Position numbers and translations under genes: made by a program. A DNA stretch of 64,000 nucleotides from Escherichia coli (GTDB taxonomy: Bacteria > Pseudomonadota > Gammaproteobacteria > Enterobacterales > Enterobacteriaceae), in NCBI RefSeq assembly GCF_041248615.1, contig NZ_CP158426.1; one strand, written 5' to 3'. The notes under the pieces are model-generated. The model worked only from the letters and a program-made list of their open reading frames with translations. It made no database searches and was not told the origin of the DNA. Shown piece after piece: positions 11,583 through 56,789 of the stretch. How positions within the stretch are numbered: position 1 is the stretch's first letter; each line of letters starts with the position of its first letter.

Positions 11583-11659
<77 letters not shown>

Positions 11660-11692
11660 TCACCGTACTGCTTTTACTTCATCAAATTTGAT

Positions 11693-11769
<77 letters not shown>

Positions 11770-11802
11770 TCACCGTACTGCTTTACTTCATCAAATTTTA
11801 AT

Positions 11803-11879
<77 letters not shown>

Positions 11880-16364: not shown

Positions 16365-16570
16365 AAAAAAAAGCACCGCAATTAGGCGGTGCTACATTAA
16401 TCACTATGGACAGACAGGGTAAATGTACAGGAAGTGAAAAAAGGTAGCTTTGCTACCATGGTCTGAATCGCAGACCAATTGCAAACACAACAACACAACA
16501 TCACAACCGTAAGCCAAAAGTTCACCAGAACACGCATTCCGATAAAACTTTTCGTTCCGGCTCAGGAAGT
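16365..16570 (-). ncRNA. gcvB: GcvB small regulatory RNA
   Basis: Minus strand reads ACTTCCTGAGCCGGAACGAAAAGTTTTATCGG...GTTGTGATGTTGTGTTGTTGTGTTTGCAATTGG...GCACCGCCTAATTGCGGTGCTTTTTTTT, including the G/U-rich R1 region and intrinsic terminator; divergent from gcvA as expected. Confidence 0.9.
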
Positions 16571-34789: not shown

Positions 34790-35155
34790 GTCGACAGGGA
34801 GTCAGACAACGAAGTGAACATCAGGATGATGACACTTCTGAAGGACACACCAGGATGGTGTTTCAGGGAAAGGCTTCTGGATGAAGCGAAGAGGATGACG
34901 CAGGACGCGTTAAAGGACACCTCCAGGATGGAGAATGAGAACCGGTCAGGATGATTCGGTGGGTCAGGAAGGCCAGGGACACTTCAGGATGAAGTATCAC
35001 ATCGGGGTGGTGTGAGCAGGAAGCAATAGTTCAGGATGAACGATTGGCCGCAAGGCCAGAGGAAAAGTTGTCAAGGATGAGCAGGGAGCAACAAAAGTAG
35101 CTGGAATGCTGCGAAACGAACCGGGAGCACTGTGAATACAGTGCTCCCTTTTTTT
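34790..35155 (+). ncRNA. csrB: CsrB small RNA (CsrA-sequestering)
   Basis: Begins GTCGACAGGGAGTCAGACAACGAAGTGAACATCAGGATGATG; about 17-18 CAGGA(U/A)G / AGGA motifs seen; ends in the GGGAGCACTGTGAATACAGTGCTCCCTTTTTTT terminator; lies between syd and yqcC. Confidence 0.9.
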
Positions 35156-35200
35156 ATTCCTGCTATCCTTCGCGGCAGTTTTTCTTATTGAGGTTGCTTT

Positions 35201-45670: not shown

Positions 45671-47905
45671 ATGGTTGCGGTAAGAAGTGCACATATCAAT
45701 AAGGCTGGTGAATTTGATCCGGAAAAATGGATCGCAAGTCTGGGTATTACCAGCCAGAAGTCGTGTGAGTGCTTAGCCGAAACCTGGGCGTATTGTCTGC
45801 AACAGACGCAGGGGCATCCGGATGCCAGTCTGTTATTGTGGCGTGGTGTTGAGATGGTGGAGATCCTCTCGACATTAAGTATGGACATTGACACGCTGCG
45901 GGCGGCGCTGCTGTTCCCTCTGGCGGATGCCAACGTAGTCAGCGAAGATGTGCTGCGTGAGAGCGTCGGTAAGTCGGTCGTTAACCTTATTCACGGCGTG
46001 CGTGATATGGCGGCGATCCGCCAGCTGAAAGCGACGCATACCGATTCTGTTTCCTCCGAACAGGTCGATAACGTTCGCCGGATGTTATTGGCGATGGTCG
46101 ATGATTTTCGCTGCGTGGTCATCAAACTGGCAGAGCGTATTGCTCATCTGCGCGAAGTAAAAGACGCGCCGGAAGATGAACGCGTACTGGCGGCAAAAGA
46201 GTGCACCAATATCTACGCGCCGTTGGCGAACCGTCTTGGGATTGGACAACTGAAATGGGAGCTGGAAGATTACTGCTTCCGTTATCTCCACCCGACCGAA
46301 TACAAACGCATCGCAAAACTGCTGCATGAACGCCGTCTCGACCGCGAACACTATATCGAAGAGTTTGTCGGCCATCTGCGCGCTGAGATGAAAGCTGAAG
46401 GCGTTAAAGCTGAAGTGTATGGTCGTCCGAAACACATCTACAGCATCTGGCGCAAAATGCAGAAAAAGAACCTCGCCTTCGATGAGCTGTTTGATGTGCG
46501 TGCGGTACGTATTGTCGCCGAGCGTTTACAGGATTGTTATGCCGCACTGGGGATAGTGCACACTCACTATCGCCACCTGCCGGATGAGTTTGACGATTAC
46601 GTCGCTAACCCGAAACCAAACGGTTATCAGTCTATTCATACCGTGGTTCTGGGACCAGGTGGCAAAACCGTTGAGATCCAAATCCGCACTAAACAGATGC
46701 ATGAAGATGCAGAGTTGGGTGTTGCTGCGCACTGGAAATATAAAGAGGGCGCGGCAGCTGGCGGCGCACGTTCGGGACATGAAGACCGGATTGCCTGGCT
46801 GCGTAAACTGATTGCGTGGCAGGAAGAGATGGCTGATTCCGGCGAAATGCTCGACGAAGTACGCAGCCAGGTATTTGACGACCGGGTGTATGTCTTTACG
46901 CCGAAAGGTGATGTCGTTGATTTGCCTGCGGGATCAACACCGCTGGACTTCGCTTACCACATCCACAGTGATGTCGGGCACCGCTGCATCGGGGCAAAAA
47001 TTGGCGGGCGCATTGTGCCGTTCACCTACCAGCTGCAGATGGGCGACCAGATTGAAATTATCACCCAGAAACAGCCGAACCCCAGCCGTGACTGGTTAAA
47101 CCCAAACCTCGGTTACGTCACAACCAGCCGTGGGCGTTCGAAAATTCACGCCTGGTTCCGTAAACAGGACCGTGACAAAAACATTCTGGCTGGGCGGCAA
47201 ATCCTTGACGACGAGCTGGAACATCTGGGGATCAGCCTGAAAGAAGCAGAAAAACATCTGCTGCCGCGTTACAACTTCAATGATGTCGACGAGTTGCTGG
47301 CGGCAATTGGTGGCGGGGATATCCGTCTCAATCAGATGGTGAACTTCCTGCAATCGCAATTTAATAAGCCGAGTGCCGAAGAGCAGGATGCCGCCGCGCT
47401 GAAGCAACTTCAGCAAAAAAGCTATACGCCGCAAAACCGCAGTAAAGATAACGGTCGTGTGGTGGTAGAAGGTGTCGGTAACCTGATGCACCACATCGCG
47501 CGCTGCTGCCAGCCGATTCCTGGAGATGAGATTGTCGGCTTCATTACCCAGGGGCGCGGTATTTCAGTGCATCGTGCAGACTGTGAGCAACTGGCGGAAC
47601 TGCGCTCCCATGCGCCAGAACGCATTGTTGACGCGGTATGGGGCGAGAGCTACTCCGCCGGATATTCGCTGGTGGTCCGGGTGATGGCCAATGATCGCAG
47701 TGGATTATTGCGTGATATCACGACCATTCTTGCCAACGAGAAGGTGAACGTGCTTGGCGTTGCCAGCCGTAGCGACACTAAACAGCAACTGGCGACTATC
47801 GACATGACCATTGAGATTTACAATCTGCAAGTGCTGGGCCGCGTGCTGGGTAAACTCAATCAGGTGCCGGATGTTATCGACGCGCGTCGGTTGCACGGGA
47901 GTTAG
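45671..47905 (+). CDS. relA: GTP pyrophosphokinase, (p)ppGpp synthetase I
   Basis: 744 aa. Confidence 0.95.
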   Translation: MVAVRSAHINKAGEFDPEKWIASLGITSQKSCECLAETWAYCLQQTQGHPDASLLLWRGVEMVEILSTLSMDIDTLRAALLFPLADANVVSEDVLRESVGKSVVNLIHGVRDMAAIRQLKATHTDSVSSEQVDNVRRMLLAMVDDFRCVVIKLAERIAHLREVKDAPEDERVLAAKECTNIYAPLANRLGIGQLKWELEDYCFRYLHPTEYKRIAKLLHERRLDREHYIEEFVGHLRAEMKAEGVKAEVYGRPKHIYSIWRKMQKKNLAFDELFDVRAVRIVAERLQDCYAALGIVHTHYRHLPDEFDDYVANPKPNGYQSIHTVVLGPGGKTVEIQIRTKQMHEDAELGVAAHWKYKEGAAAGGARSGHEDRIAWLRKLIAWQEEMADSGEMLDEVRSQVFDDRVYVFTPKGDVVDLPAGSTPLDFAYHIHSDVGHRCIGAKIGGRIVPFTYQLQMGDQIEIITQKQPNPSRDWLNPNLGYVTTSRGRSKIHAWFRKQDRDKNILAGRQILDDELEHLGISLKEAEKHLLPRYNFNDVDELLAAIGGGDIRLNQMVNFLQSQFNKPSAEEQDAAALKQLQQKSYTPQNRSKDNGRVVVEGVGNLMHHIARCCQPIPGDEIVGFITQGRGISVHRADCEQLAELRSHAPERIVDAVWGESYSAGYSLVVRVMANDRSGLLRDITTILANEKVNVLGVASRSDTKQQLATIDMTIEIYNLQVLGRVLGKLNQVPDVIDARRLHGS

Positions 47906-48000
47906 TCTTACATAGCTGGATATGGCGTCAGCCGTATCCAGCGATATCTTTTACTCGAAGGTATTACACCTGACGGACCCGCAATTTTCAGGACATTCTA

Positions 48001-48792
48001 ATGAATCAAATCGACCGTTTGCTCACCATCATGCAGCGCCTGCGCGATCCGGAAAACGGCTGCCCGTGGGATAAAGAGCAGACATTTGCCACCATTGCAC
48101 CTTACACCCTTGAAGAAACCTACGAAGTGCTGGACGCCATTGCCCGTGAAGATTTTGACGATCTGCGCGGTGAACTCGGCGATCTACTGTTCCAGGTGGT
48201 TTTTTACGCACAAATGGCTCAGGAAGAAGGGCGCTTTGACTTTAATGATATATGCGCCGCGATCAGCGATAAATTAGAACGTCGCCATCCGCATGTTTTT
48301 GCTGACAGTTCTGCCGAAAACAGTAGTGAAGTGCTTGCCCGTTGGGAGCAAATCAAAACCGAAGAGCGCGCGCAGAAAGCGCAGCATTCGGCGCTGGACG
48401 ATATTCCTCGTAGTTTACCGGCTTTAATGCGTGCGCAAAAAATCCAGAAACGTTGCGCCAACGTTGGTTTTGACTGGACGACGCTTGGTCCGGTAGTCGA
48501 TAAAGTCTACGAAGAGATCGACGAGGTGATGTACGAGGCACGGCAGGCTGTTATCGACCAGGCTAAACTGGAGGAGGAAATGGGCGACCTGCTGTTTGCC
48601 ACGGTCAATCTGGCTCGTCATTTAGGGACAAAAGCGGAAATCGCATTGCAAAAAGCGAACGAAAAATTCGAGCGTCGTTTTCGCGAAGTGGAGCGTATTG
48701 TTGCCGCGCGTGGACTGGAAATGACAGGTGTTGACCTCGAAACAATGGAAGAAGTCTGGCAACAGGTAAAACGGCAGGAAATTGATCTCTAA
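48001..48792 (+). CDS. mazG: Nucleoside triphosphate pyrophosphohydrolase MazG
   Basis: 263 aa from MNQIDRLLTIMQRLRDPENGCPWDKEQTF; starts 95 bp after the relA stop. Confidence 0.95.
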   Translation: MNQIDRLLTIMQRLRDPENGCPWDKEQTFATIAPYTLEETYEVLDAIAREDFDDLRGELGDLLFQVVFYAQMAQEEGRFDFNDICAAISDKLERRHPHVFADSSAENSSEVLARWEQIKTEERAQKAQHSALDDIPRSLPALMRAQKIQKRCANVGFDWTTLGPVVDKVYEEIDEVMYEARQAVIDQAKLEEEMGDLLFATVNLARHLGTKAEIALQKANEKFERRFREVERIVAARGLEMTGVDLETMEEVWQQVKRQEIDL

Positions 48793-52974: not shown

Positions 52975-53267
52975 TATAAATGTCCCATTAAAGCTGGATA
53001 AATAAATTGACGGCGGCATCGGTAATTTGAGATTCGTTATAATTAAAAACGAACACAGAAAAAATAAGTATAATTTTGGTGAATGTTTTTGACATGATTA
53101 AATCCCTTTACTTTATTTATTTCTGACATAATACGTTACTCCCTTTTATTATTAACGATCTGTTTCTCATTTTTCTTTAAACCTGCCTGTAACAGAATGT
53201 TAATAAGACATGATTGTTGTGGCAGGATCTGCAATAATTAACAATTATCCACTTCACAGAGAATGCT

Positions 53268-53939
53268 ATGCAGTACCCGATTAACGAGATGTTCCAGACC
53301 CTGCAAGGTGAGGGTTACTTTACCGGCGTCCCCGCCATTTTTATTCGTTTACAGGGATGCCCGGTTGGCTGTGCCTGGTGCGACACCAAACACACCTGGG
53401 AAAAGCTTGAGGATCGGGAAGTCTCCCTTTTCAGCATTCTGGCGAAGACCAAAGAGAGTGATAAGTGGGGGGCGGCGAGCAGTGAAGACTTGCTGGCTGT
53501 CATTGGTCGCCAGGGATACACCGCGCGGCATGTGGTGATTACGGGTGGTGAGCCTTGCATTCATGATTTGCTGCCACTGACTGACCTGCTCGAAAAGAAC
53601 GGTTTTAGCTGCCAGATCGAAACCAGTGGTACTCATGAGGTACGCTGCACACCGAATACCTGGGTTACCGTATCGCCAAAGCTGAACATGCGCGGCGGCT
53701 ATGAAGTGTTGTCACAGGCACTGGAGCGAGCCAACGAAATCAAGCATCCAGTGGGACGCGTGCGTGATATTGAAGCACTGGATGAACTACTGGCAACACT
53801 GACCGATGATAAACCGCGAGTCATTGCGCTGCAGCCGATTAGCCAAAAGGAAGATGCTACTCGTTTATGTATCGATACGTGCATTGCGCGCAACTGGCGT
53901 TTGTCGATGCAAACACATAAATATTTAAATATTGCCTGA
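53268..53939 (+). CDS. queE: 7-carboxy-7-deazaguanine synthase (radical SAM)
   Basis: 223 aa with CPVGCAWCDT cysteine motif. Confidence 0.9.
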   Translation: MQYPINEMFQTLQGEGYFTGVPAIFIRLQGCPVGCAWCDTKHTWEKLEDREVSLFSILAKTKESDKWGAASSEDLLAVIGRQGYTARHVVITGGEPCIHDLLPLTDLLEKNGFSCQIETSGTHEVRCTPNTWVTVSPKLNMRGGYEVLSQALERANEIKHPVGRVRDIEALDELLATLTDDKPRVIALQPISQKEDATRLCIDTCIARNWRLSMQTHKYLNIA

Positions 53940-54129
53940 TTAAACATTTATAAGCGTTATAAATGGGTGGAACCTGTAAAGACTTCTACTCATTTATATT
54001 CTTTGTCGCCTCTAAAAAACCTCCATTTTGCCCATCCTGGACTAATCATTATCATTTTCTACAAATTCTGTGGCGTTAATTTTTCGTTGGAGTGAAAATT
54101 ATTACGTCGGAGTTTGGTGGATTTTAGTC

Positions 54130-54277
54130 GGTATAGAATTACTTTAAATATTTGGCTTTTCAATCAATGAATTAAGTGCTCTTTAACATAATGGATGTGT
54201 TGTTTGTGTGTTTCTGTTAAGTTGGTAGATTGTGACTGACTTAAAAAATCAATAATTAATAATAGGTTATGTTTAGT
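54130..54277 (+). promoter_or_regulatory. Putative CRISPR leader (AT-rich) abutting repeat 1
   Basis: AT-rich tract immediately 5' of the first repeat on the repeat-sense strand; no promoter elements were verified. Confidence 0.5.
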
Positions 54278-54672
54278 GAGTTCCCCGCGCCAGCGGGGAT
54301 AAACCGGCTGATGCGGTTCTATCACCACCACAAATTATGAGTTCCCCGCGCCAGCGGGGATAAACCGCAAATACGCGCGAGTGGCTAACCTGGAATCATG
54401 AGTTCCCCGCGCCAGCGGGGATAAACCGGCGCGGACGATAATCAGGGGCAGGCAGGGCACGAGTTCCCCGCGCCAGCGGGGATAAACCGGAAATCCAATA
54501 TTAACGTGGTGTTTTCAAAACGAGTTCCCCGCGCCAGCGGGGATAAACCGCGTTTAGCTCCGCAATGCTGGATATCACTGATGAGTTCCCCGCGTCAGCG
54601 GGGATAAACCGTATGGGAAACAGTAGCAACGGGCACACTGGCGGAGTTCCCCGCGCCAGCGGGGATAAACCA
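54278..54672 (+). CRISPR. Type I-E CRISPR array, 7 repeats and 6 spacers, no cas genes in window
   Basis: 29-bp repeat GAGTTCCCCGCGCCAGCGGGGATAAACCG at 54278, 54339, 54400, 54461, 54522, 54583 and 54644 with 32-bp spacers. Repeat 6 has C13T; the last repeat ends ...CCA instead of ...CCG. Corresponds to the ygcE-ygcF array of E. coli (established knowledge). Confidence 0.95.
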
Positions 54673-55126
54673 CCATATAACCCGTAATCTCTTTCTAAAG
54701 TTTTTATATTAGCAGTACTCGTAATAAGCAACATATCCACGTAACACCTCATGTTCAAAATAGCTCTCCATATATGAGAAGTTCACAATTATCGATACAA
54801 AAAATCAAATTTAATTAAAGTGTTAGTTGTATAATACTTAAATCATTAAGAAATTATCATATATTATTTTTTTAATATTGAATTGATGTTTGTTAGTTTT
54901 TTCTTTAGGATAATAGATTGTTTTTTAAGCTTATTATTCATTGATTAAGTAATAAATCTGGAAATTTGTCTTTGTTTTGAGGCTAATGAGTGGTTTTACA
55001 TAACCGTCTCTATAGACTGTTGATGAATAGTTCTTATGAATAAAGATATCCAGTTCATACTTTAAATGAAAATTGATAAAGTACGGTTTGCGTTGTCTTT
55101 TATTCTAAGGACATCGAGTGTAGTTA

Positions 55127-55265
55127 ATATTCCTTGTAACAACAGGGATAAACCGAACTAGTTAAAGTTTTTATTATGTTCCCTGCATCAGCGGGGATAA
55201 ACCGGACTTGTTATCATTTTTTAAGTTGTCGAACTTATGTTCCCCACGTCAGCGGGGATAACCAT
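55127..55265 (+). CRISPR. Degenerate CRISPR remnant: 3 decayed type I-E repeats with one intact-length 32-bp spacer
   Basis: atgttccctgcatcagcggggataaaccg (55176-55204) and atgttccccacgtcagcggggataacc (55237-55265) flank a 32-bp spacer; a further eroded repeat ...cagggataaaccg ends at 55155. Confidence 0.75.
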
Positions 55266-55310
55266 TCAGGTATGTTCAGGCCGGGCAGTTTCCCGCCCGG
55301 CCTTCCTCAC

Positions 55311-56789
55311 TTACGCATTCGACCAGCTCTGGATCGAATCCGCATTCCCCAATTCACCATGCATCACTTCATACGATTTTTTCAGGATCACATCAGTGTG
55401 CTTGGTTAGGTCTTTGAAAATGCCTTTATTCATCGCGTCGTAGCGTTTGGCGTTGCTCTCAACAGGCATAAAGATATCTTTCACGCGAACCATTTTGTCG
55501 ACAGCCGTTGCGTAATCCGGGTATAGCCCCAGACCTACCGCCGTATTAATCGCTGCCCCCAGACTTGCACAACCATTAATGGCGTTACGGCGTGCCGGAA
55601 GGTTGAACACGTCGGCAAAAATCTGCATAAACAGATCGCTGTTCGAACCGCCGCCAGTAATGATCACATGCTTTGCAAAGTGATTCATTTCATTACACAT
55701 ATTGTCGTAATTGTTCTTCAGCGTCAGCGCCACGCTTTCCAGTATCGAACGATATATCCATGCGTAATCCATGCTGGAATCAAAGCCGATCATAATCCCG
55801 CGTTTGTACGGTTCCCACGGATTGGTCAGCCAGTCCAGCACCGTCATCAGACCATTACAGCCAGGCGGCACACAAGACGCTTTTTTGTTGAGTAAATCTT
55901 CCGGTGAAAGATCCTGTGCTTTGGCATCCTGAATTAACGACTCGCCTAACATGTCGCGCAGCCAGCTCACTGTCCACATGCCTTTGCGGATACCGTAACC
56001 TTCATACAGCAATGTTTGCGGAATAGAAGACATAATCGGCCAGTACGCTACCGGATCTTTCGGCAGTGCTTTGCCGTTCATCATCAACGCGATGTAAGTG
56101 CCAAGAGAAATTACCGCAGTTTCATCATCCAGTAACCCGGCTCCCAGTGCTTCTACCGGTTTATCACTGGTGGTACAAACAACCGGCAGCCCAGCCGGGA
56201 AATGTGTCGCCAGCGCGGCTTGACGAGTGATATGCCCAAGAACAGTGCCCGGCATTTGCACATCAAACAGCATATGACGGGGGATATTAAACTTCTCCAT
56301 GACTGCGGCATCTTCACTCCATGCCCAGGTCTTATAATCCACCGGCCACTGACCAAAATAGTTGGCGATATTGTCTTTAAACTCGCCGGTTAAGCGATGC
56401 GTCAGATAACCCGAAAAAGAGGTGACATATGCCACGTCAGGATTCGTATGTTCGTAAGGGCGTGTAACGCGTGCATCCTGCCAGCTAATCAACGGCGCAG
56501 CTGGCGTGCCATCGGCTTTCAATAACGCACGGCAGCAACGGATGGATCCCAGACCAATACCGACAATATCTTCTTTATTTCCGGCAAACTGACTCATCAA
56601 ATCGTGACCGGCAAAGCATAATGATGCCCATAAATCGTCGTCAGGATGTTCTGCGGTATCGGCATCTGGCGTGTGCATCGGCTGCAATAAGCCTTTGCCT
56701 TCGCAAACCACATTACCTTCCAGATCGTACATCACCACTTTTGTGCTCTGACTTCCACCATCAATCCCTATGATGTATTTTTTCGACAT
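55311..56789 (-). CDS. ygcE: FGGY-family carbohydrate kinase, substrate unknown
   Basis: 492 aa. Confidence 0.85.
   Translation of the reverse strand: MSKKYIIGIDGGSQSTKVVMYDLEGNVVCEGKGLLQPMHTPDADTAEHPDDDLWASLCFAGHDLMSQFAGNKEDIVGIGLGSIRCCRALLKADGTPAAPLISWQDARVTRPYEHTNPDVAYVTSFSGYLTHRLTGEFKDNIANYFGQWPVDYKTWAWSEDAAVMEKFNIPRHMLFDVQMPGTVLGHITRQAALATHFPAGLPVVCTTSDKPVEALGAGLLDDETAVISLGTYIALMMNGKALPKDPVAYWPIMSSIPQTLLYEGYGIRKGMWTVSWLRDMLGESLIQDAKAQDLSPEDLLNKKASCVPPGCNGLMTVLDWLTNPWEPYKRGIMIGFDSSMDYAWIYRSILESVALTLKNNYDNMCNEMNHFAKHVIITGGGSNSDLFMQIFADVFNLPARRNAINGCASLGAAINTAVGLGLYPDYATAVDKMVRVKDIFMPVESNAKRYDAMNKGIFKDLTKHTDVILKKSYEVMHGELGNADSIQSWSNA

What the first reader, a model, noticed from the sequence alone, without database searches (positions are those of the whole stretch)
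54278..54672. Orphan type I-E CRISPR array (6 spacers) with no cas genes anywhere in the 64 kb window
Seven copies of the canonical E. coli type I-E repeat separated by six 32-bp spacers lie between queE (ygcF) and ygcE. The AT-rich leader-like side faces queE, so transcription would be on the plus strand. No Cas ORF exists in the window, so any activity depends on a distant cas operon. Spacer content is strain-specific and records past phage or plasmid encounters. Spacers read from the plus strand: gctgatgcggttctatcaccaccacaaattat; caaatacgcgcgagtggctaacctggaatcat; gcgcggacgataatcaggggcaggcagggcac; gaaatccaatattaacgtggtgttttcaaaac; cgtttagctccgcaatgctggatatcactgat; tatgggaaacagtagcaacgggcacactggcg.
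Basis: partly seen in the sequence, partly recalled or inferred. Interest (0 to 1): 0.6.

Follow-up and report, generated by a model that had tools for sequence, protein, structure and literature searches.

The report
Ordinary E. coli CRISPR-II array, not orphan
This is the well-known second CRISPR array that most E. coli carry between queE (ygcF) and ygcE. It looks orphan only because the window ends 7.7 kb before the strain's complete type I-E cas operon, so it is ordinary.

Summary
The array is real. Seven 29-nt repeats with six 32-nt spacers lie at 54278-54672 on the + strand, exactly as described; chance predicts none.

The window is E. coli NRZ14408 chromosome NZ_LT599825.1, positions 1120001-1184000. 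RefSeq already annotates this feature as "CRISPR".

The array is orthologous, flank for flank, to the K-12 CRISPR-II (CRISPR2.3) locus between ygcE and ygcF/queE. The last 100 nt of the leader are 93% identical.

"Orphan" is a window-edge artefact. The same chromosome has an unbroken cas3-casA-casB-cas7-cas5-cas6e-cas1-cas2 operon starting 17.0 kb past the array, followed by a second array. All eight proteins are full length and score above the type I-E family cut-offs. The literature describes exactly this split layout (PMC3903273, PMC10910852).

No protospacer was found in phage, plasmid, IMG/VR or complete E. coli genome collections. The only lead is a weak 25-26/32 match of spacer 6 to a conjugative-plasmid gene.

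S1-S4 occur in 2 of 5,426 complete genomes, S6 in 4 and S5 in 324.

Verdict: already known, low interest.

The parts
53268..53939 (+). queE (ygcF), the conserved flank on the leader side
   Evidence: RefSeq annotation of NZ_LT599825.1 at 1173268-1173939. K-12 has the same neighbour.
53940..54277 (+). AT-rich leader of CRISPR2.3. The conserved core is 54178-54277.
   Evidence: GC is 0.32-0.36 here, against about 0.5 in the flanking genes. The last 100 nt are 93% identical to the K-12 CRISPR-II leader and 83% identical to this strain's own CRISPR2.1 leader, including an exact AGTTGGTAGATTGT block.
54236..54263 (+). Sigma-70-like promoter candidate, CTGACT-16 nt-AATAAT (weak)
   Evidence: Consensus scan, 9 of 12 matches. 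The number of such sites in the region is not above the shuffle expectation (4 found, 4.7 expected). The presence of a promoter rests on the literature for leader 2.3 (PMC3903273), not on this scan.
54247..54259 (+). IHF-consensus-like site AATCAATAATTAA, 19-31 nt upstream of repeat 1
   Evidence: One mismatch to WATCAANNNNTTR. Its role in spacer integration is inferred from work on K-12 (my own knowledge) and was not tested.
54278..54672 (+). CRISPR2.3 array: 7 repeats of 29 nt and 6 spacers of 32 nt, 61-nt period
   Evidence: RefSeq annotates it as a 'CRISPR' direct_repeat at 1174277-1174672. The repeat RNA folds into a 7-bp hairpin at -15.1 kcal/mol, z = -3.6.
54307..54338 (+). Spacer S1 (nearest the leader, newest): GCTGATGCGGTTCTATCACCACCACAAATTAT
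   Evidence: Found only in NRZ14408 and isolate 362 among 5,426 complete genomes, and in one metagenome contig that carries the same array. No protospacer found.
54368..54399 (+). Spacer S2: CAAATACGCGCGAGTGGCTAACCTGGAATCAT
   Evidence: No protospacer found.
54429..54460 (+). Spacer S3: GCGCGGACGATAATCAGGGGCAGGCAGGGCAC. The nearest relatives carry one extra spacer after it.
   Evidence: Isolate 362 and contig OASQ01002221 carry an additional repeat-spacer unit (AGGTATATGAAATTGAAGAAAGCTGCCCCATC) between S3 and S4.
54490..54521 (+). Spacer S4: GAAATCCAATATTAACGTGGTGTTTTCAAAAC
   Evidence: No protospacer found.
54551..54582 (+). Spacer S5: CGTTTAGCTCCGCAATGCTGGATATCACTGAT, an old and widely shared spacer
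   Evidence: Present in the CRISPR arrays of 324 of 5,426 complete genomes: 25 exact, the rest mostly 31/32. In many strains it is the last spacer.
54583..54611 (+). Repeat 6, a variant with a C>T change in the loop (GCGTCAGC)
   Evidence: The fold is unchanged at -15.1 kcal/mol. All repeats of this genome's CRISPR2.1 array carry the same loop variant.
54612..54643 (+). Spacer S6 (furthest from the leader, oldest): TATGGGAAACAGTAGCAACGGGCACACTGGCG
   Evidence: Found in the arrays of 4 of 5,426 genomes. It has a weak 25-26/32 match to a 95-aa DUF6943 gene of MOBP/MPF_T conjugative plasmids.
54644..54672 (+). Terminal repeat, which ends ...ACCA
   Evidence: K-12 has an identical terminal repeat.
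54673..55126 (+). 0.45-kb AT-rich separator between CRISPR2.3 and CRISPR2.2
   Evidence: GC is 0.23-0.33. It is orthologous in K-12 and six other strains, with 13% variable columns. The literature describes it as a 0.5-kb AT-rich sequence (PMC3903273, PMC10910852).
55127..55265 (+). CRISPR2.2 remnant: three degenerate repeats (55127-55155, 55176-55204, 55237-55265) with two frozen spacers of 20 and 32 nt
55311..56789 (-). ygcE, the conserved flank on the trailer side

Best explanation
This is the CRISPR2.3 array of the CRISPR-II locus of the native E. coli type I-E CRISPR-Cas system. It is a second memory bank that uses the cas operon of the CRISPR-I locus, 17 kb away on the same chromosome.

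Shown here:
- A seven-repeat, six-spacer array sits in the transcribed orientation behind a conserved AT-rich leader.
- The chromosome carries an intact eight-gene cas operon of the common E. coli variant called cas-E1, plus a second array (CRISPR2.1). The CRISPR2.1 repeats differ from those of the window array at only 2 of 29 positions, outside the stem and the 8-nt 5' handle.

Inferred from work on K-12 and not tested here:
- A promoter in the leader drives a + strand pre-crRNA.
- Cas6e binds each repeat hairpin and cuts at its 3' base. This yields 61-nt crRNAs: AUAAACCG, then the 32-nt spacer, then a 21-nt hairpin handle.
- Cascade (CasA-E) uses these crRNAs to find PAM-flanked (AAG/AWG) protospacers in double-stranded DNA, and Cas3 degrades the target.
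- Cas1-Cas2 with IHF would insert new spacers at the leader-repeat 1 junction.
- Expression is probably low unless H-NS repression is relieved.

Array history (inferred): S5-S6 is an old trailer module, S1-S4 are specific to this lineage, and one internal unit has been lost in this strain.
For: - Array anatomy.
- Source and existing annotation: the window is 100% identical to NZ_LT599825.1 at 1120001-1184000, and the feature is already annotated as CRISPR.
- Synteny: queE-array-ygcE-yqcE-ygcW...cysJIH-cas3...cas2-CRISPR-iap is the same gene order as in K-12 MG1655.
- Orthology: the leader, terminal repeat, separator and CRISPR2.2 remnant all align base for base with K-12. The leader core is 93% identical.
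- Repeat: identical to the K-12 CRISPR-I repeat. The hairpin is predicted at -15.1 kcal/mol.
- Cas proteins: Cas3 (899 aa), CasA, CasB, Cas7e, Cas5e, Cas6e, Cas1e and Cas2e all match the type I-E NCBIfam models end to end and above the curated cut-offs. None carries a pseudogene flag.
- Second array: CRISPR2.1 follows cas2 with 11 full repeats, GTGTTCCCCGCGTCAGCGGGGATAAACCG.
- Literature: the I-E system is split between CRISPR-I (iap-cysH, with cas) and CRISPR-II (ygcE-ygcF). Leader 2.3 carries a promoter and is conserved whichever cas variant a strain has (PMC3903273). CRISPR1 and CRISPR2 are about 20 kb apart and only CRISPR1 has adjacent cas genes (PMC10910852). The K-12 CRISPR-II array is routinely used to measure new spacer acquisition (PMC11879090).
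- Spacer sharing follows the expected polarity: leader-proximal spacers are rare and trailer spacers are shared.
Against: - No expression, processing, interference or adaptation data exist for this strain.
- None of the six spacers has a convincing protospacer.
- The nearest relatives share S1, so there is no sign of acquisition since they diverged.
- This strain's Cas proteins are the cas-E1 variant: CasA is 21% and Cas6e 27% identical to K-12. K-12 mechanistic details, including H-NS control, are therefore extrapolated.
- The promoter-like site in the leader is no better than chance by the simple scan.
Confidence: 0.95

Rival explanations
1. It is a true orphan array: the genome has no cognate cas genes, so the array is an inert leftover.
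For: No cas gene lies inside the 64-kb window. The literature notes that some E. coli lineages keep CRISPR-II while lacking cas-E genes (PMC3903273).
Against: The source chromosome has a complete, unflagged cas3-casABCDE-cas1-cas2 operon at 1191717-1200278, 17.0 kb from the array. All eight products are full length and above the family cut-offs.
Confidence: 0.01
2. The array and the cas genes are intact, but the system is effectively dormant in this lineage. It would be silenced transcriptionally, as in K-12, with no recent acquisition and no living targets. The array would then persist as a slowly eroding, near-neutral heirloom rather than as working immunity.
For: No protospacer was found for any spacer in INPHARED phages, PLSDB plasmids, IMG/VR or 5,426 complete E. 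coli genomes including their prophages and plasmids. The only change relative to the nearest relatives is the loss of an internal spacer; no new leader-end spacer has been gained. [quoted passage not shown]
Against: All eight cas ORFs remain intact, which is not expected under long neutrality. S1-S4 are rare, so they were acquired within a narrow lineage. PMC10910852 reports that many 'unknown' E. coli spacers find targets once more bacterial genomes and prophages are searched. Silencing has been shown for the K-12 cas-E2 variant, not for cas-E1.
Confidence: 0.3
3. It is not a CRISPR array but another kind of interspersed repeat (REP/BIME-like), or a chance pattern.
For: Tandem Repeats Finder and Rfam report nothing here.
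Against: The 61-nt period is strict, the spacers are unique and all 32 nt long, and the repeat is identical to the K-12 type I-E repeat. The locus is orthologous to K-12 CRISPR-II and annotated as CRISPR by RefSeq, and shuffles predict 0 matches.
Confidence: 0

Closest known systems
E. coli K-12 MG1655 CRISPR-II array (CRISPR2.3, between ygcE and ygcF/queE)
   Same: The chromosomal position and flanking genes are the same. The leader core is 93% identical. The repeat family, the terminal ...ACCA repeat, the 0.45-kb AT-rich separator and the CRISPR2.2 remnant all match. Even the numbers match: 7 repeats and 6 spacers.
   Different: None of the six spacers is shared. Most K-12 repeats start GTG rather than GAG. 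The partner cas operon here is the common cas-E1 variant, whereas K-12 has cas-E2; CasA is 21% and Cas6e 27% identical (PMC3903273).
CRISPR-I / CRISPR2.1 array of the same genome (cas2-iap interval)
   Same: It belongs to the same repeat family, with 27 of 29 positions identical and the same stem and 8-nt handle. The period is 61 nt, the orientation relative to the cas operon is the same, and the leader is homologous at 83%.
   Different: It lies directly beside cas2, has 11 full repeats plus a decayed terminal one, carries different spacers, and has the GTG...GTCA repeat variant throughout.
Genuine orphan CRISPR-II arrays in E. coli lineages that lack cas-E genes
   Same: The locus and the leader are the same (PMC3903273 says leader 2.3 is similar in strains lacking cas-E).
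   Different: This genome keeps a full cas-E1 operon, so the array is not orphan.

Membership tests
CRISPR array (generic) | At least three near-identical direct repeats of 23-50 nt, separated by unique spacers of constant length | tested here: met
   Seven 29-nt repeats with at most 1 mismatch and six different 32-nt spacers at a 61-nt period. Zero matches are expected by chance.
CRISPR array (generic) | An AT-rich leader on one side and a degenerate repeat at the far end | tested here: met
   GC is 0.32-0.36 upstream. The last repeat ends ACCA.
Type I-E (E. coli 'type 2') repeat family | 29-nt repeat GAGTTCCCCGCGCCAGCGGGGATAAACCG, with a 7-bp GC stem, a tetraloop and an ATAAACCG 5' handle | tested here: met
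   It is identical to the K-12 CRISPR-I repeat read. The fold is -15.1 kcal/mol with the expected stem.
E. coli CRISPR-II locus (CRISPR2.3) | Located between ygcE and ygcF (queE) | tested here: met
   Annotation of the source record and of K-12. Definition taken from PMC3903273 and PMC10910852.
E. coli CRISPR-II locus (CRISPR2.3) | Conserved leader 2.3 | tested here: met
   93 of 100 positions are identical to the K-12 leader 2.3. Full alignment.
E. coli CRISPR-II locus (CRISPR2.3) | A companion CRISPR2.2 array about 0.5 kb away across an AT-rich stretch | tested here: met
   Three degenerate repeats at 55127-55265, 454 nt after the array, orthologous in 8 strains.
Orphan CRISPR array | No cognate cas genes in the genome | tested here: not met
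   A complete type I-E operon lies at NZ_LT599825.1 1191717-1200278, and all 8 proteins score above the NCBIfam cut-offs.
Functional type I-E CRISPR-Cas system | Full set of cas3, cse1, cse2, cas7, cas5, cas6e, cas1 and cas2 with intact reading frames | tested here: met
Functional type I-E CRISPR-Cas system | Spacers match protospacers in mobile elements next to an AAG/AWG PAM | tested here: not met
   No match in the phage, IMG/VR, plasmid or E. coli genome collections. The exception is S6, at 25-26/32 to a plasmid gene with PAM GGA or AGG. This reflects database coverage, so it does not exclude function.
Functional type I-E CRISPR-Cas system | Pre-crRNA is transcribed and processed, and interference and adaptation are demonstrable | not testable with these tools
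   This needs RNA-seq or northern blots and transformation or plaque assays in NRZ14408.

The most novel reading that the evidence does not exclude
The neighbouring CRISPR2.2 'fossil' (55127-55265) may not be junk. Its three decayed repeats still fold into the Cas6e-type hairpin, one of them through two compensatory double substitutions. Its 32-nt spacer is identical in 4,048 of the 4,062 genomes that carry it. The block is about four times less variable than the DNA on either side. It could therefore be a conserved, Cas6e-processed RNA with a fixed guide and a non-immune role, or a structural anchor for the locus. The main array itself offers no novel reading.
Probability: 0.05. Interest if true: 0.45.

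Novelty: already known. Interest (0 to 1): 0.07.

Why it matters
It matters little beyond bookkeeping. It is a reminder that a CRISPR array seen in a fixed window should not be called orphan until the rest of the replicon has been checked. In E. coli the second type I-E array always sits about 17-25 kb from its cas operon. For strain typing, S1-S4 mark a narrow lineage: NRZ14408 (named in the record title), isolate 362 from Madrid, and one metagenome contig.

Tried and rejected
- Tandem Repeats Finder found no array. This is expected, because the spacers differ and the copies fall below its similarity threshold.
- Rfam gave no CRISPR repeat family hit at gathering or at E<=1. The only hit was a chance-level sX8 match.
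- All six spacers against INPHARED phages: no match even at E<=10.
- All six spacers against PLSDB plasmids. One hit was the array itself in a chromosome mislabelled as a plasmid. The others were S6 matches of 25-26/32 in a 95-aa gene (Pfam DUF6943, E = 4e-4; no PHROG) of Erwinia, E. coli, Klebsiella and Serratia conjugative plasmids.
- I did not accept that S6 match as the protospacer, because the PAM is GGA or AGG and there are 6-7 mismatches. The in-frame peptide similarity (VWETVATGTLA against VWEPVATGSLS, my own reading of the sequence) suggests the true source may be a homologous gene.
- Exact IMG/VR scans of S1-S6, with N at every sixth position, found nothing. The S6 scan used a looser 28-nt pattern with extra N positions.
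- Genome-contig scans for S6 and S4 found nothing.
- The metagenome scan for S1 found only the same array in a related strain.
- The spacers have no second, near-matching (self-target) copy in the 95 kb of source genome held. No non-CRISPR hit appeared in 5,426 E. coli genomes.
- The sigma-70 scan of the leader is not above chance, so I rely on the literature for the promoter.
- The CRISPR2.2 spacers have no meaningful phage, plasmid or second chromosomal match.

Full report
**Observation.** The sequence at 54278-54672 holds seven copies of GAGTTCCCCGCGCCAGCGGGGATAAACCG on the + strand at a strict 61-nt period. Five copies are exact. Repeat 6 has one C>T change, and repeat 7 ends ACCA instead of ACCG. 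Dinucleotide-preserving shuffles of the window give 0.00 matches at up to three mismatches, against 7 observed. As RNA, the repeat folds into a 7-bp GC-rich hairpin with a tetraloop (-15.1 kcal/mol, z = -3.6). The repeat 6 change lies in the loop and leaves the fold unchanged. Tandem Repeats Finder and Rfam report nothing here. This reflects how those tools and libraries work, not a problem with the array.

**Where the window comes from.** A 1.4-kb query around the array is 100% identical to E. coli NRZ14408 chromosome NZ_LT599825.1, with window 54000 equal to record position 1174000. The window is therefore record 1120001-1184000 in + orientation. RefSeq already annotates positions 1174277-1174672 as "CRISPR", with queE upstream (window 53268-53939, +) and ygcE downstream (55311-56789, -). 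The rest of the window runs from recC through ptrA-recBD, the fuc operon, csrB, barA, relA, pyrG and eno to ygcP, and it contains no cas gene.

**Why "orphan" is wrong.**
- Continuing along the same chromosome, the gene order is ygcE-yqcE-ygcW-ygcU-ygcS-ygcR-ygcQ-ygcP-ygcO-ygcN-queD-cysJIH, then a hok/gef gene.
- Next come cas3, casA, casB, cas7e, cas5e, cas6e, cas1e and cas2e at record 1191717-1200278. A second CRISPR array follows at 1200375-1201013, and then iap.
- cas3 starts 17.0 kb after the end of the array and 7.7 kb beyond the window edge.
- None of the eight genes carries a pseudogene flag. Translated directly from the DNA, all eight match the type I-E NCBIfam models essentially end to end and above the curated cut-offs.
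- The second array has 11 full repeats, GTGTTCCCCGCGTCAGCGGGGATAAACCG. These differ from the window repeat at two positions, outside the stem and the ATAAACCG handle.

**Comparison with the known system.**
- K-12 MG1655 has the same gene order from iap to pyrG.
- Its ygcE-queE intergenic region aligns base for base with window 53940-55310. The alignment covers the leader, the array position, the terminal ACCA repeat, a 0.45-kb AT-rich stretch, three degenerate repeats and the ygcE terminator hairpin.
- The last 100 nt of the leader are 93% identical to K-12's. They are 83% identical to this strain's own CRISPR2.1 leader, with an exact AGTTGGTAGATTGT block.
- Almendros et al. (PMC3903273) state that the E. 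coli I-E system is split between CRISPR-I (iap-cysH, with the eight cas-E genes and CRISPR2.1) and CRISPR-II (ygcE-ygcF, with CRISPR2.3 and CRISPR2.2 separated by 0.5 kb). They also state that both the 2.1 and 2.3 leaders carry promoters, and that leader 2.3 is conserved whichever cas variant is present.
- PMC10910852 says the two arrays are about 20 kb apart and that only CRISPR1 has adjacent cas genes.
- PMC11879090 measures spacer acquisition at the K-12 CRISPR-II array.
- The feature is therefore a textbook member of a described locus.

**The cas variant.** The K-12-specific NCBIfam models for Cas3 and CasA fall below their cut-offs. CasA is 21% and Cas6e 27% identical to the K-12 proteins. 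NRZ14408 therefore carries the variant that PMC3903273 calls cas-E1, which is the common one; K-12 has the rarer cas-E2. PMC3737337 reports a CWT (AWG) acquisition motif for the non-K-12 variant. K-12 mechanistic detail is an extrapolation for this strain.

**Likely mechanism.** What the sequence shows is the repeat orientation (the 5' handle sequence lies at the 3' end of each repeat), the leader on the queE side, the altered repeat at the far end, an intact cas operon, and compatible repeats in both arrays. The following steps are inferred from K-12 work:
- A leader promoter transcribes the + strand.
- Cas6e cuts after each hairpin to give 61-nt crRNAs.
- Cascade and Cas3 carry out PAM-dependent DNA interference.
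- Cas1-Cas2 with IHF integrates new spacers at the leader-repeat 1 junction.
- H-NS limits expression.

An IHF-consensus-like site (AATCAATAATTAA, one mismatch) lies 19-31 nt upstream of repeat 1. A weak sigma-70-like site lies at 54236-54263, but such sites are no more frequent in this region than in shuffles.

**Spacer content: distribution among strains.**
- Among 5,426 complete E. coli genomes, S1-S4 occur only in NRZ14408 and isolate 362 (NZ_OW967178.1).
- S6 occurs in two further arrays, at 31/32 and 30/32.
- S5 occurs in 324 genomes.
- Every listed hit lies under a CRISPR annotation on a chromosome, and no hit lies on a plasmid.
- Isolate 362 and a metagenome contig (OASQ01002221) carry the same array with one extra unit between S3 and S4. 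Because new spacers enter at the leader end, this is best read as an internal deletion in NRZ14408.
- Strain 135 shares the trailer S5-repeat(GTCA)-S6.
- Strain O139:H1 P15-25 ends at S5 with a hybrid GTCA...ACCA repeat. That is what recombination between repeats 6 and 7 would leave after deleting S6.
- S5-S6 is therefore an old trailer module, and S1-S4 are lineage-specific.

**Spacer content: targets.**
- There is no match in INPHARED phages at E<=10.
- Exact scans of IMG/VR with every sixth base free found nothing for any spacer.
- GTDB representative genomes gave nothing for S6 or S4.
- The spacers have no second, near-matching copy in the 95 kb of source genome held.
- The only lead is S6 at 25-26/32 to a 95-aa DUF6943 gene in 35-54 kb MOBP/MPF_T conjugative plasmids of Erwinia, E. 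coli, Klebsiella and Serratia. The seed positions are intact, but the PAM is GGA or AGG. This suggests a homologous source and proves nothing.
- The lack of targets agrees with published experience for E. coli (PMC3903273, PMC10910852).

**Side observation.** The three degenerate repeats at 55127-55265 (CRISPR2.2) still fold into the hairpin. The first does so through two compensatory double changes. Across eight strains, this 139-nt block has 2.9% variable columns, against 13% in the AT-rich separator and 15.6% in the ygcE 3' flank (Fisher p = 2.6e-4 against the separator). Its 32-nt spacer is identical in 4,048 of the 4,062 genomes that have it. It has no meaningful second chromosomal, phage or plasmid match. 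This may reflect constraint, but it rests on eight strains that are not independent samples.

**Verdict.** The feature is already known and already annotated, and interest is low.

Noticed in passing
window 55127-55265 (+): This is the CRISPR2.2 remnant: three degenerate repeats that keep the hairpin (the first through two compensatory double substitutions) and two frozen spacers of 20 and 32 nt. The block has 2.9% variable columns in 8 strains, against 13-16% in the flanking non-coding DNA. The 32-nt spacer is 100% identical in 4,048 of the 4,062 complete E. coli genomes that carry it and has no meaningful other match.
   Followed up: partly
window 47906-48000 (between relA and mazG): The mazE-mazF toxin-antitoxin pair that sits between relA and mazG in K-12 is absent here. 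relA ends at 47905 and mazG starts at 48001, leaving a 95-nt gap, whereas K-12 has a 731-nt interval holding mazEF.
   Followed up: partly
window 52988-53129 (-): The small ORF at the position of K-12 yqcG (cell envelope stress response protein) is annotated as a frameshifted pseudogene in this strain.
   Followed up: no
window 54460/54461 (between S3 and repeat 4): The nearest relatives (isolate 362, NZ_OW967178.1; metagenome contig OASQ01002221) carry one extra repeat-spacer unit here (spacer AGGTATATGAAATTGAAGAAAGCTGCCCCATC). NRZ14408 has probably lost an internal unit by repeat-repeat recombination.
   Followed up: yes
L010 640-672 (O139:H1 P15-25) compared with window 54583-54672: In strains whose array ends at S5, the last repeat is a hybrid: it has the GTCA loop of repeat 6 and the ACCA end of repeat 7. 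This is the footprint expected if S6 was deleted by recombination between repeats 6 and 7.
   Followed up: partly
L001 26370-26522 (record 1191370-1191522, outside the window): A Hok/Gef family toxin gene lies in the cysH-cas3 intergenic region, just upstream of cas3. K-12 has sokX at the equivalent spot.
   Followed up: no
L004 2799-3086 / L003 2799-3086: A 95-aa DUF6943 protein is conserved in small MOBP/MPF_T conjugative plasmids of Erwinia, E. coli, Klebsiella and Serratia. It is the only sequence resembling any spacer (S6, 25-26/32).
   Followed up: partly
window 11583-11879 (-), 16365-16570 (-), 34799-35158 (+): Three tandem tRNA-Met genes and the GcvB and CsrB small RNAs are present. 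These are ordinary E. coli features.
   Followed up: no
PLSDB records NZ_CP134663.1, NZ_OL790696.1, NZ_CP141089.1: These 4.8-4.9 Mb E. coli 'plasmid' records are evidently chromosomes mislabelled as plasmids. They carry the chromosomal CRISPR-II locus and produce false plasmid hits for spacers.
   Followed up: no
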